Source of the DNA: a virus
Taxonomy: Duplodnaviria; Heunggongvirae; Uroviricota; Caudoviricetes
Strand: one strand, 5' to 3'
DNA: 11,761 nt
Virus record (IMG/VR): IMGVR_UViG_2585427768_000001
Location: 1-11,761 of that record
Below, one piece after another: positions 10,748 through 11,761 of the stretch (position 1 is its first letter; each line of letters begins with the position of its first letter). The notes under the pieces are model-generated. The model saw only the letters and a program-made list of their open reading frames with translations, searched no databases and had not been told where the DNA came from. The position numbers and the translations under genes are program-made.

Positions 10748-11291
10748 GTGCGGGTATTACTTCGACCTGTTCTGGTACCGGAACTCGGGCTGGTGATCGT
10801 TAAGCCGGGCCGTGAATCCATGCCGGTATTCCACAATACCCGGGTACTGGTGGAGCCGGAACCGAAAAGCATGCGTAATCTGTCGTCCGGGGTCGTTCCT
10901 GCCGTTCGCCAGCCGCTGGCGGAGGATAAATCATTACTGCCATTTTTCAGCGACGAACGAGTGATTCGTGCTGCTGGTGGCGCTGGCGCATTGTCTGACT
11001 GGTTACTGCGCCATGTTAAATCCTGCCAGTGGCCACACGGCGATTATCACCACAGTGAAACCGTCATTCACCGTTATGGTACCGGCGCAATGGTGTTGTG
11101 CTGGCACTGCGACAACCAGCTGCGCGACCAGACCTCCGAATCACTCGGGCAACTTGCTCACCAAAACCTGTCTGCATGGATGATTGACGTCATACGCCAT
11201 GCAATGAATGGCTCGCAGGAACGGGAATTATCGCTGGCTGAATTATCCTGGTGGGCGGTCCGCAATCAGGTGGCGGACGCGCTACCGGAAG
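10748..11291 (+). pseudogene. DUF968-like (YdfU-like) Cys/His-rich protein gene, 3' part removed by IS insertion
   Basis: GTG 10748 with GGAGG 4 nt upstream, overlapping the upstream stop; Cys/His motif CQWPHGDYHH...CWHCDNQ; the frame runs into the IS terminal repeat at 11292, so the track ORF tail after ...ADALPEV is IS-derived. Confidence 0.55.
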
Positions 11292-11761
11292 TGAACCGCC
11301 CCGGGTTTCCTGGAGAGTGTTTTATCTGTGAACTCAGGCTGCCAGATCATCGTTTCCGATGGAAGCATAATAAGCTTTTTCTGCTTCTGCCGGAGGAGTA
11401 TGGCCCAGCCTTTCCAGCAATCGTCGATTGTTATACCAGTCCACCCACGTGAGTGTGGCCAGTTCCACTTCTGCACGGTTTTTCCAGCTCTTACGGTGTA
11501 TTACCTCCGCTTTGTAAAGACCATTGATGCTCTCCGCCATCGCGTTGTCATACGAGTCGCCTGTACTTCCTGTTGATGCCAGTAATCCGGCTTCCTTAAG
11601 CCGCTGTGTGTAGGCCAGCGATACATACTGAGAACCTTTATCACTGTGATGGACCGTGCCGGACGGTCGACGGGCCCATAACGCCTGCTCCAGTGCATCC
11701 AGCACGAATGTCGTCTCCATGGACGATGAGACCCGCCACCCCACGATGTATCCGGCAAACA
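11292..11761 (-). mobile_element. IS629-like insertion sequence (IS3 family), partial; right terminal inverted repeat at 11292
   Basis: Plus strand from 11292 reads TGAACCGCCCCGGGTTTCCTGGAGAGTGTTTTATCTGTGAACTCAGGCTGCC, recognised as the IS629/IS1203-type terminal inverted repeat in reverse orientation; the adjacent minus-strand ORF encodes the C-terminus of an IS3-family OrfB. Confidence 0.8.
11334..11761 (-). CDS. IS3-family transposase OrfB (DDE/rve integrase core), C-terminal part; N-terminus beyond window end
   Basis: Minus-strand ORF ending TGA at 11336..11334; product ...[106 protein letters not shown], typical DDE transposase C-terminus. Confidence 0.8.

What the first reader, a model, noticed from the sequence alone, without database searches (positions are those of the whole stretch)
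10748..11761. IS629-like insertion truncates the DUF968-like gene at the edge of the late-regulatory region
The IS terminal repeat begins at 11292 and the DUF968-like reading frame runs straight into it, so the gene has lost its C-terminus. In Qin-type prophages a DUF968 gene (ydfU) lies next to the Q antiterminator, so this insertion may have inactivated or separated the late regulatory region, which would make the prophage defective. IS629 is typical of EHEC/Shigella genomes and hints at the host background.
Basis: partly seen in the sequence, partly recalled or inferred. Interest (0 to 1): 0.4.

Follow-up and report, generated by a model that had tools for sequence, protein, structure and literature searches.

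The report
IS629 insertion truncating a prophage gene
A common E. coli jumping gene (IS629) has landed in the middle of a non-essential nuclease-like gene of a resident lambda-like prophage and cut off its catalytic half; this is an ordinary, well-known kind of prophage decay, and the sequence stops inside the jumping gene, so its effect on the rest of the prophage cannot be read.

Summary
Window 1-11291 aligns in one piece at 99.9% to IS-free prophages in other E. coli. Similarity stops exactly at 11291. From 11292 the sequence is the right end of a 1310-bp IS3-family element. It matches a copy that its depositors annotated as IS629 at 469 of 470 bases, and the O157 'IS1203' subtype at 95.3%.

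The gene starting at GTG 10748 is 100% identical over 544 nt to intact 348-aa DUF968 proteins. It keeps 181 native codons and reads on for 53 IS-encoded codons. It loses 88% of the Pfam DUF968 domain, including the His-Me (HNH) finger.

- The prophage is a Rac/Qin mosaic, and rusA lies between the DUF968 gene and Q in relatives.
- The claim that the prophage is defective cannot be tested, because the window ends in the IS, probably at a draft-assembly break in the repeat.
- The EHEC/Shigella hint fails. IS629-like sequence occurs in 76% of complete E. coli genomes. The only other record of this junction is a phylogroup A, ST10 strain, 2-011-08_S3_C3.

Verdict: real, ordinary and already known in kind. 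Interest is low.

The parts
10748..11291 (+). Retained 5' part of the DUF968-family (His-Me finger, YdfU-like) gene: GTG start, 181 codons plus 1 nt, 52% of the 1047-nt intact gene.
   Evidence: 100% identical over 544 nt to intact genes encoding WP_001265119.1 (348 aa) and WP_341858398.1 (329 aa). The translations agree up to ...ADALPE. Only Pfam DUF968 profile positions 1-22 of 171 remain (18.4 bits against a cut-off of 27.8).
10748..11452 (+). Chimeric ORF: 181 native residues, 53 residues read from the IS end, and a TGA stop.
   Evidence: ORF list and translation. This exact 234-aa product is in GenBank once, as KDA82112.1, a hypothetical protein of E. coli 2-011-08_S3_C3.
11289..11291 (.). 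AAG: the three target bases next to the IS end. They are the predicted 3-bp target-site duplication if this is a simple insertion.
   Evidence: Inference only. Full copies of the same element have 3-bp duplications, TGG in N25 and GGA in O157 F7349. IS629 duplicates 3-4 bp (PMC3271280). The second copy would lie outside the window.
11292..11761 (-). Right-end 470 bp of a 1310-bp IS629 element (IS3 family). The transposase reads on the minus strand. The element is cut off by the end of the window.
   Evidence: 469/470 identical to 1310-bp copies in N25, 95-3192 and AP019704, the last annotated 'IS629 transposase OrfA/OrfB'. It is 95.3% identical to the O157 IS1203-labelled copy.
11292..11316 (.). 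Terminal inverted repeat (IRR, the end next to the 3' end of orfB): TGAACCGCCCCGGGTTTCCTGGAGA.
   Evidence: In full copies of this subtype it matches the other end at 23 of 25 positions, and at 25 of 25 in the O157 subtype.
11334..11761 (-). 3' part of transposase orfB: C-terminal 141 codons plus the stop at 11334-11336. The 5' part lies beyond the window.
   Evidence: Pfam rve 6.4e-16, rve_3 3.5e-12, rve_2 5.8e-07. No amino-acid differences from the C-terminus of BBK50483.1, IS629 OrfB.
10468..10746 (+). Small upstream hypothetical gene (92 aa in relatives). Its stop lies 1 nt before the DUF968 GTG. Context only; the IS does not affect it.
   Evidence: Annotated in JKHS016 at the equivalent position, L003 16468-16746. 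It lies within the window ORF 10387-10746. No Pfam match.

Best explanation
An IS629 element of the IS3 family transposed into codon 182 of a YdfU-like DUF968 gene. Its transposase is an OrfAB DDE enzyme made by a -1 frameshift, and it moves by copy-out-paste-in through a circular intermediate. The target gene lies in the region between the replication genes and Q of a Rac/Qin-mosaic lambdoid prophage of E. coli.

Shown: the break falls exactly at the IS terminal TG. The gene keeps 181 native codons and gains a 53-codon tail read from the IS. Residues 182-348 are lost. These carry 88% of the Pfam DUF968 domain and its Cys/His His-Me (HNH) finger.

Inferred: the nuclease-like function is lost. 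The 1.3-kb insert lies antisense to rightward early transcription, so it probably lowers read-through into rusA and Q, which in relatives start 516 and 887 bp downstream. The window ends inside the IS because a short-read assembly broke at the repeat. The rest of the gene, preceded by a duplicated AAG, most likely lies on another contig. I put a simple insertion at about 60-65% and an IS-associated rearrangement at about 35-40%. The confidence given is for the shown core (a real IS629 insertion that truncates the gene), not for the inferred consequences.
For: - Single-piece 99.9% alignment of 1-11291 to IS-free relatives, ending exactly at 11291.
- IS fragment 469/470 identical to 1310-bp copies, one of them annotated IS629 OrfA/OrfB. 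rve domain and identical OrfB C-terminus.
- Intact allele 348 aa, with DUF968 at residues 160-345 (256.7 bits) and an HNHc_6-like stretch at 270-318. The window ORF keeps profile positions 1-22 only.
- DUF968 is classified in His-Me finger group 7, with RusA and Q as typical neighbours (PMC5714182).
- Downstream order DUF968-rusA-Q in relatives.
- Same junction in the independent assembly GCA_000687065.1, whose contig also ends inside the IS.
- 3-bp duplications flank sister copies. IS629 sits mostly in prophages and makes 3-4-bp duplications (PMC3271280).
- The copy-out-paste-in mechanism is stated in the abstract of bioRxiv 10.1101/2023.06.07.543989.
Against: - The other IS end is not in the window, so the target duplication, the 3' half of the gene, rusA and Q are not seen.
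- Only 21 of 47 IS629 sites in O157 genomes have matching duplications. One sister copy, in 95-3192, sits between unrelated gene fragments with no duplication. A deletion or rearrangement is therefore a real possibility.
- Polarity on Q is inferred only. The scan found one weak terminator-like site in the IS on the + strand, no more than chance.
- The formal ISfinder name was not checked.
Confidence: 0.93

Rival explanations
1. IS-associated deletion or rearrangement. The IS end at 11292 marks the edge of a deletion or inversion made by recombination between IS629 copies, or by adjacent deletion. The 3' half of the DUF968 gene, rusA, Q and perhaps the late genes would then no longer be adjacent, and the prophage would be truly crippled.
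For: Fewer than half of IS629 sites in O157 genomes have target duplications (21 of 47; PMC3271280). The near-identical copy in strain 95-3192 lies between a truncated tape-measure gene and a truncated R-M subunit gene with no duplication. The window gives no sequence beyond the IS.
Against: Two of three sister copies examined are simple insertions with 3-bp duplications. The 11.3 kb to the left shows no indels against relatives. Neither point is direct evidence.
Confidence: 0.35
2. Assembly artefact. The phage-IS junction is a chimeric join made by an assembler at a repeat, and the DUF968 gene is intact in the real genome.
For: The window ends inside a multicopy repeat, as draft contigs do. 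The junction is absent from 5426 complete E. coli genomes, the GTDB representative genomes, IMG/VR and the JGI metagenomes.
Against: The break coincides to the base with the IS terminal TG. The identical junction occurs in a separately deposited assembly, which differs from the window at 6 positions elsewhere and ends at a different point in the IS.
Confidence: 0.03
3. Activating insertion. As with the IS2 and IS10 insertions upstream of rusA in DLP12, the IS supplies or creates a promoter that switches on the downstream rusA and Q genes independently of the prophage repressor, rather than silencing them.
For: There is a precedent in the same gene neighbourhood: quiescent rusA is activated by IS2 or IS10 insertion upstream (PMC1636454). 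IS629-type elements have hit this module independently in N25 and O157 strains.
Against: No sigma-70-like site reads out of the IS towards rusA in a full copy in the same orientation. The only hit in that scan lies beyond the IS, within the rusA remnant. No site spans the junction in the window. The end facing rusA would be IRL, and the transposase reads away from rusA. No expression data exist.
Confidence: 0.05
4. The gene is naturally short: a stand-alone N-terminal-domain homologue rather than a truncated one.
For: Split versions of the gene, with an N-terminal ORF of 186-214 aa and a 151-aa C-terminal ORF, are common in other contigs.
Against: Those are frameshift splits of a full-length gene. 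The window's 544 nt are 100% identical to intact 1047-nt genes, and the reading frame continues into IS sequence.
Confidence: 0.01

Closest known systems
IS629 insertions in lambdoid prophages of E. coli O157:H7 and other STEC (Rump et al. 2011, PMC3271280; Yin et al. 2015, PMC4587872)
   Same: The element family is the same: 1310 bp, the same terminal repeat, and 3-4-bp duplications. It prefers prophage DNA (62% of sites) and splits phage ORFs such as roi, lysozyme and methyltransferase genes. It drives within-type prophage diversity.
   Different: The subtype here is the one deposited as IS629 in O145 and other plasmids (99.8%), about 4-5% diverged from the main O157 'IS1203' subtype. The host background is ST10-like phylogroup A, not EHEC. 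This particular site, codon 182 of the DUF968 gene, was not found in any complete genome searched.
rus-1/rus-2: IS2 or IS10 insertions upstream of rusA in the defective prophage DLP12 of E. coli K-12 (as summarised in PMC1636454)
   Same: An IS lands just upstream of rusA in the region between the replication genes and Q of a resident lambdoid prophage.
   Different: Those insertions activate rusA and were selected as ruv suppressors. Here nothing shows activation, the IS lies inside a coding gene, and the downstream genes are not seen.
YdfU (Qin) and YbcO (DLP12; PDB 3g27): His-Me finger group 7, DUF968/DUF1364 (PMC5714182)
   Same: The intact allele of the interrupted gene is a full-length DUF968 protein (256.7 bits) with the same neighbours, RusA and Q.
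   Different: The window copy lacks the His-Me finger part and falls below the Pfam threshold. The biochemical function of the family has not been tested in anything I read.

Membership tests
IS629 (IS3 family; isoforms IS1203 and IS3411) | Terminal sequence TGAACCGCCCCGGG..., with TG/CA ends and about 25-bp imperfect inverted repeats | tested here: met
   11292-11316 is identical to the end of full 1310-bp copies. The two ends of those copies match at 23/25 positions (this subtype) or 25/25 (O157 subtype). Only one end is in the window.
IS629 (IS3 family; isoforms IS1203 and IS3411) | High nucleotide identity to elements named IS629 | tested here: met
   469/470 to the AP019704 copy, annotated by its depositors as IS629 OrfA/OrfB. 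95.3% to the O157 copy that RefSeq labels IS1203 family. Subtypes differing by 4-5% are described in PMC3271280. The ISfinder reference itself was not available.
IS629 (IS3 family; isoforms IS1203 and IS3411) | DDE (rve) transposase OrfB | tested here: met
   rve E 6.4e-16. The C-terminal 141 aa are identical to IS629 OrfB BBK50483.1. Only the C-terminal 48% of OrfB is present.
IS629 (IS3 family; isoforms IS1203 and IS3411) | orfA and orfB joined by a -1 programmed frameshift; full length 1310 bp | not testable with these tools
   This part lies beyond the end of the window. It is seen in sister copies: 1310 bp, 'programmed frameshift', AL1L pseudoknot.
IS629 (IS3 family; isoforms IS1203 and IS3411) | 3-4-bp target-site duplication | not testable with these tools
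   The other end is outside the window and was not found in any searchable collection. Sister copies show TGG and GGA.
DUF968 (PF06147), His-Me finger group 7 | Pfam match above the gathering score | tested here: not met
   Window ORF: 18.4 bits against 27.8, profile positions 1-22 of 171 only. Intact allele, identical over the retained 544 nt: 256.7 bits, positions 1-171. The window therefore holds a remnant of a member, not a member.
DUF968 (PF06147), His-Me finger group 7 | C-terminal Cys/His His-Me (HNH) finger | tested here: not met
   The motif CACCGK...HHLIGH...CREHHNELH lies at about residues 267-312 of the intact protein, beyond the break at residue 181.
DUF968 (PF06147), His-Me finger group 7 | Neighbourhood with rusA and antiterminator Q | tested here: inconclusive
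   True in IS-free relatives 99.9% identical to the window. In the window these positions lie beyond the IS.
Qin-type prophage (E. coli K-12 Qin) | Qin marker genes and a Qin immunity region | tested here: inconclusive
   dicB, DicF RNA and hokD/sok are present. The immunity region is racR plus ydaS-like and ydaT, with a RecE-like exonuclease, as in Rac. It is a mosaic. That these are markers of K-12 Qin and Rac rests on my own knowledge.

The most novel reading that the evidence does not exclude
The insertion may not be simple decay. One reading is that IS629 upstream of rusA-Q uncouples these genes from prophage repression, as IS2 and IS10 do at rusA in DLP12. Another is that it leaves a stable N-terminal-domain protein (181 aa plus a 53-aa tail) that keeps a DNA-binding activity without the nuclease finger. 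Independent IS629-type hits in the same DUF968-rusA module in N25 and O157 strains would then reflect selection rather than target preference.
Probability: 0.05. Interest if true: 0.35.

Novelty: already known. Interest (0 to 1): 0.08.

Why it matters
It matters little beyond annotation. It shows that the 234-aa 'hypothetical protein' (KDA82112.1) is a chimera of a truncated DUF968 gene and IS sequence. It shows that the contig ends at a repeat. It also shows that IS629 in a sequence is not a marker of EHEC or Shigella. If the downstream part proved to be deleted, it would be one more documented step in the domestication of a Rac/Qin-like prophage. The junction could serve as a strain-lineage marker for ST10-like isolates.

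Tried and rejected
1. Recovering the other IS end:
- Exact scans for the junction found nothing. The 40-mer was scanned in the GTDB genome contigs and IMG/VR, and a 27-mer in the JGI metagenome contigs.
- Megablast of 10387-11761 against 5426 complete E. coli genomes gave only two-piece matches, so no record has the contiguous junction.
- A look-up of the chimeric protein found one contig, JMGV01000090.1, which also stops inside the IS.
- I built the predicted C-terminal fragment ORFs for a simple insertion and looked them up. Only the 151-aa MYRESD...GVLG form exists. Its ten contigs shown are frameshift-split alleles from other samples, not the contig sought.

2. An internal duplication of the HNH-like motif, between the N-terminal CQWPH...HH...CWHCDN stretch and the C-terminal finger: BLASTP E = 2.7, not significant.

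3. A PDB sequence search with the intact protein gave no hit at E <= 1. The link to YbcO (3g27) rests on the literature only.

4. Promoter and terminator scans of the junction and of a full IS in the same orientation gave nothing above shuffled expectation. They neither support nor exclude polarity or activation.

5. I did not run the large protein-homology searches or a structure prediction. The finding did not justify the cost.

Full report
**Observation**

The region was read directly and ORFs were listed. An ORF starts with GTG at 10748 and runs to a stop at 11450-11452 (234 codons). From 11292 the sequence reads TGAACCGCCCCGGGTTTCCTGGAGA.

A megablast of the whole window against 5426 complete E. 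coli genomes gave single-piece alignments of 1-11291 at 99.9% to strains JKHS016, SCPM-O-B-12142 and AST198. A base-by-base comparison with JKHS016 shows 7 mismatches and no indels.

**The insertion sequence**

- Positions 11292-11761 match 6718 records in 4146 of the 5426 complete genomes.
- They are 469/470 identical to full copies in strains N25 and 95-3192, and to a copy on plasmid AP019704 that its depositors annotate as 'IS629 transposase OrfA/OrfB'.
- They are 95.3% identical to the O157:H7 copy that RefSeq labels 'IS3-like element IS1203 family'.
- All full copies are 1310 bp. The two ends of a copy match at 23 of 25 positions in this subtype and 25 of 25 in the O157 subtype.
- The minus strand 11334-11759 encodes the last 141 residues of OrfB. 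It has an rve integrase-core domain (E 6.4e-16) and no amino-acid differences from the deposited IS629 OrfB. The end in the window is therefore IRR.

The 4-5% divergence between subtypes, with IS1203 and IS3411 treated as isoforms of IS629, is described by Rump et al. (PMC3271280). ISfinder could not be queried, so the name rests on depositor annotation and that paper.

**The interrupted gene**

- The 544 nt from 10748 to 11291 are 100% identical to genes annotated 'DUF968 domain-containing protein'. These are 1047 nt (348 aa) in FDAARGOS_536 and 990 nt (329 aa, with a premature stop at codon 330) in JKHS016.
- Other alleles are 1047-1056 nt, so the gene is not naturally short.
- The translations agree up to ...ADALPE (residue 181). 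The intact protein then continues AVLRRSLG..., while the window reads VNRPGFPGECF... for 53 codons out of the IS.
- In the intact protein the Pfam DUF968 domain covers residues 160-345 (256.7 bits), with a sub-threshold HNHc_6 match at 270-318. The window ORF keeps profile positions 1-22 only and scores 18.4 bits, below the cut-off of 27.8.
- DUF968 has been placed in the His-Me (HNH) finger superfamily, group 7, together with DUF1364/YbcO. RusA and Q are its typical neighbours (PMC5714182). A C-terminal zinc-finger HNH motif has also been noted for the family (PMC4118853).

The part that is lost is therefore the predicted catalytic part.

**Context**

Using the annotation of JKHS016 (window coordinate = locus coordinate minus 6000), the Pfam marks on the sister contig and Rfam, the window holds, in order:
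- a RecE-like exonuclease (cut by the window start), DUF1482, dicB and DicF RNA (2927-2978, minus strand);
- racR (4371-4847, minus strand), a ydaS-like HTH gene, ydaT, a replication-type HTH gene, DUF977 and several small genes;
- sok and hokD (8627-8952), and an HTH plus ImmA/IrrE pair (9197-10035);
- a small hypothetical gene (10468-10746) and then the DUF968 gene.

This is a lambdoid prophage with both Rac-like and Qin-like modules, not simply 'Qin-type'. In IS-free relatives the DUF968 gene is followed by rusA (PF05866) and then by a Q-type antiterminator (PF03589, E 5.8e-50). These start 516 and 887 bp beyond the insertion point. A methyltransferase gene, tRNA genes and lysis genes follow. 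The insertion is thus just upstream of the late regulator, but not next to it.

**Where else the junction exists**

It is absent from the complete E. coli genomes, where only two-piece matches were found. It is also absent from the GTDB representative genomes, IMG/VR and the JGI metagenomes.

The exact 234-aa chimeric protein is on record once, as KDA82112.1 of E. coli 2-011-08_S3_C3. It lies on an 11,597-bp contig of GCA_000687065.1. That contig matches window 748-11617 with 6 mismatches and also stops inside the IS, 326 nt in, against 470 nt for the window.

Two consequences follow:
- The junction is real rather than a one-off chimera.
- Both sequences end where short-read assemblies break, inside a multicopy repeat. 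The other IS end is therefore not recoverable here.

The strain is reported as phylogroup A, ST10, ONT:H10, with aatA, aap and astA (PMC8923075). Together with the presence of the element in about three quarters of complete E. coli genomes, this removes the EHEC/Shigella inference.

**Simple insertion or rearrangement?**

- Sister copies in N25 and O157 F7349 lie in rusA with 3-bp duplications (TGG and GGA).
- The copy in 95-3192 lies between fragments of unrelated genes with no duplication.
- In four O157 genomes only 21 of 47 IS629 sites had matching 3-4-bp duplications.

A simple insertion here would duplicate AAG (11289-11291) and resume with CGGTATTACG.... I built the ORFs expected from that arrangement and looked them up. 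Only a generic 151-aa fragment exists, and the contigs shown for it are frameshift-split alleles from other samples. The question stays open. I estimate about 60-65% for a simple insertion.

**Consequences**

Shown: the coding sequence for the His-Me finger half is lost.

Inferred:
- Function is lost.
- The insert probably has a polar effect on rusA and Q, because a 1.3-kb antisense insert lies in the rightward early transcript. Consensus scans found no terminator or outward promoter signal above chance, so neither polarity nor activation has direct support.

The genes between the replication genes and Q are dispensable in lambda (the nin5 deletion; own knowledge, not tested). Loss of this gene alone is therefore a weak argument for a defective prophage. 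The opposite outcome has a precedent in the same neighbourhood: IS2 or IS10 upstream of rusA activates it in DLP12 (PMC1636454).

**Comparison and verdict**

IS629 insertions that split prophage genes are well documented. 62% of IS629 sites in O157 genomes are in prophages, and IS629 is the main source of variation within Stx2a phage types (PMC3271280 and PMC4587872). The element is 99.8% identical to known copies, the target gene belongs to a known family, and the chimeric ORF is already in GenBank.

This is a correct observation of an ordinary event. The interpretation needs three corrections: the prophage type, the position relative to Q, and the host inference. One claim, that the prophage is defective, cannot be tested from this window.

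Noticed in passing
window 2927-2978 (-) and 8627-8802 (+): Rfam finds DicF RNA (76.7 bits) upstream of dicB, and sok antitoxin RNA (117.1 bits) overlapping the start of hokD (8797-8952). Both are Qin-like features in a prophage that has a Rac-like immunity region.
   Followed up: partly
window 3062, 3067, 3720, 5610, 10385, 10396: The window differs at these six positions from both of its nearest relatives, JKHS016 and the 2-011-08_S3_C3 contig, which agree with each other there. The window's source is therefore a third, unidentified strain or assembly. Position 10385 (G instead of T) is the first base of the T-tract after a terminator-like hairpin.
   Followed up: partly
window 10371-10384: A GC-rich hairpin, CCCGCTTCGGCGGG, has T-runs on both strands, like a bidirectional terminator. 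It lies between the ImmA/IrrE gene and the block formed by the small ORF, DUF968, rusA and Q. It could be the terminator that early transcription must pass to reach Q.
   Followed up: no
L009-L018 (other E. coli contigs); L003 17735-17737: The DUF968 gene is often broken in other strains without any IS. It is split by frameshifts into ORFs of about 186-214 aa and 151 aa. JKHS016 has a premature stop at codon 330. This suggests relaxed selection on the gene in resident prophages.
   Followed up: partly
L001 5489-6798; L004 4160-5469; L007 about 2500-3800: There are independent IS629-type insertions in the same module elsewhere: inside rusA in N25 (duplication TGG) and in O157:H7 F7349 and FRIK804 (GGA), and upstream of hok in O111:H- 11128. 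79 complete genomes have such an IS within about 1 kb of the DUF968 5' region.
   Followed up: partly
L005 1508-2817: An IS629 copy in strain 95-3192 lies between a truncated tail tape-measure gene and a truncated type I R-M subunit M gene, with no target duplication. This is an IS-associated rearrangement.
   Followed up: no
window 9197-10035: An HTH gene (119 aa) is followed by an ImmA/IrrE (Peptidase_M78) metallopeptidase gene, a repressor/protease-like pair. It sits in the region between the replication genes and Q rather than at the immunity region.
   Followed up: no
window 10530-10548 and 10707-10725: A 19-nt direct repeat (GCGGCGTTCCCGCACATTC, 84% identical, 177 nt apart) lies inside the small hypothetical gene upstream of the DUF968 gene. 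It may be a chance match or an internal repeat in the protein.
   Followed up: no
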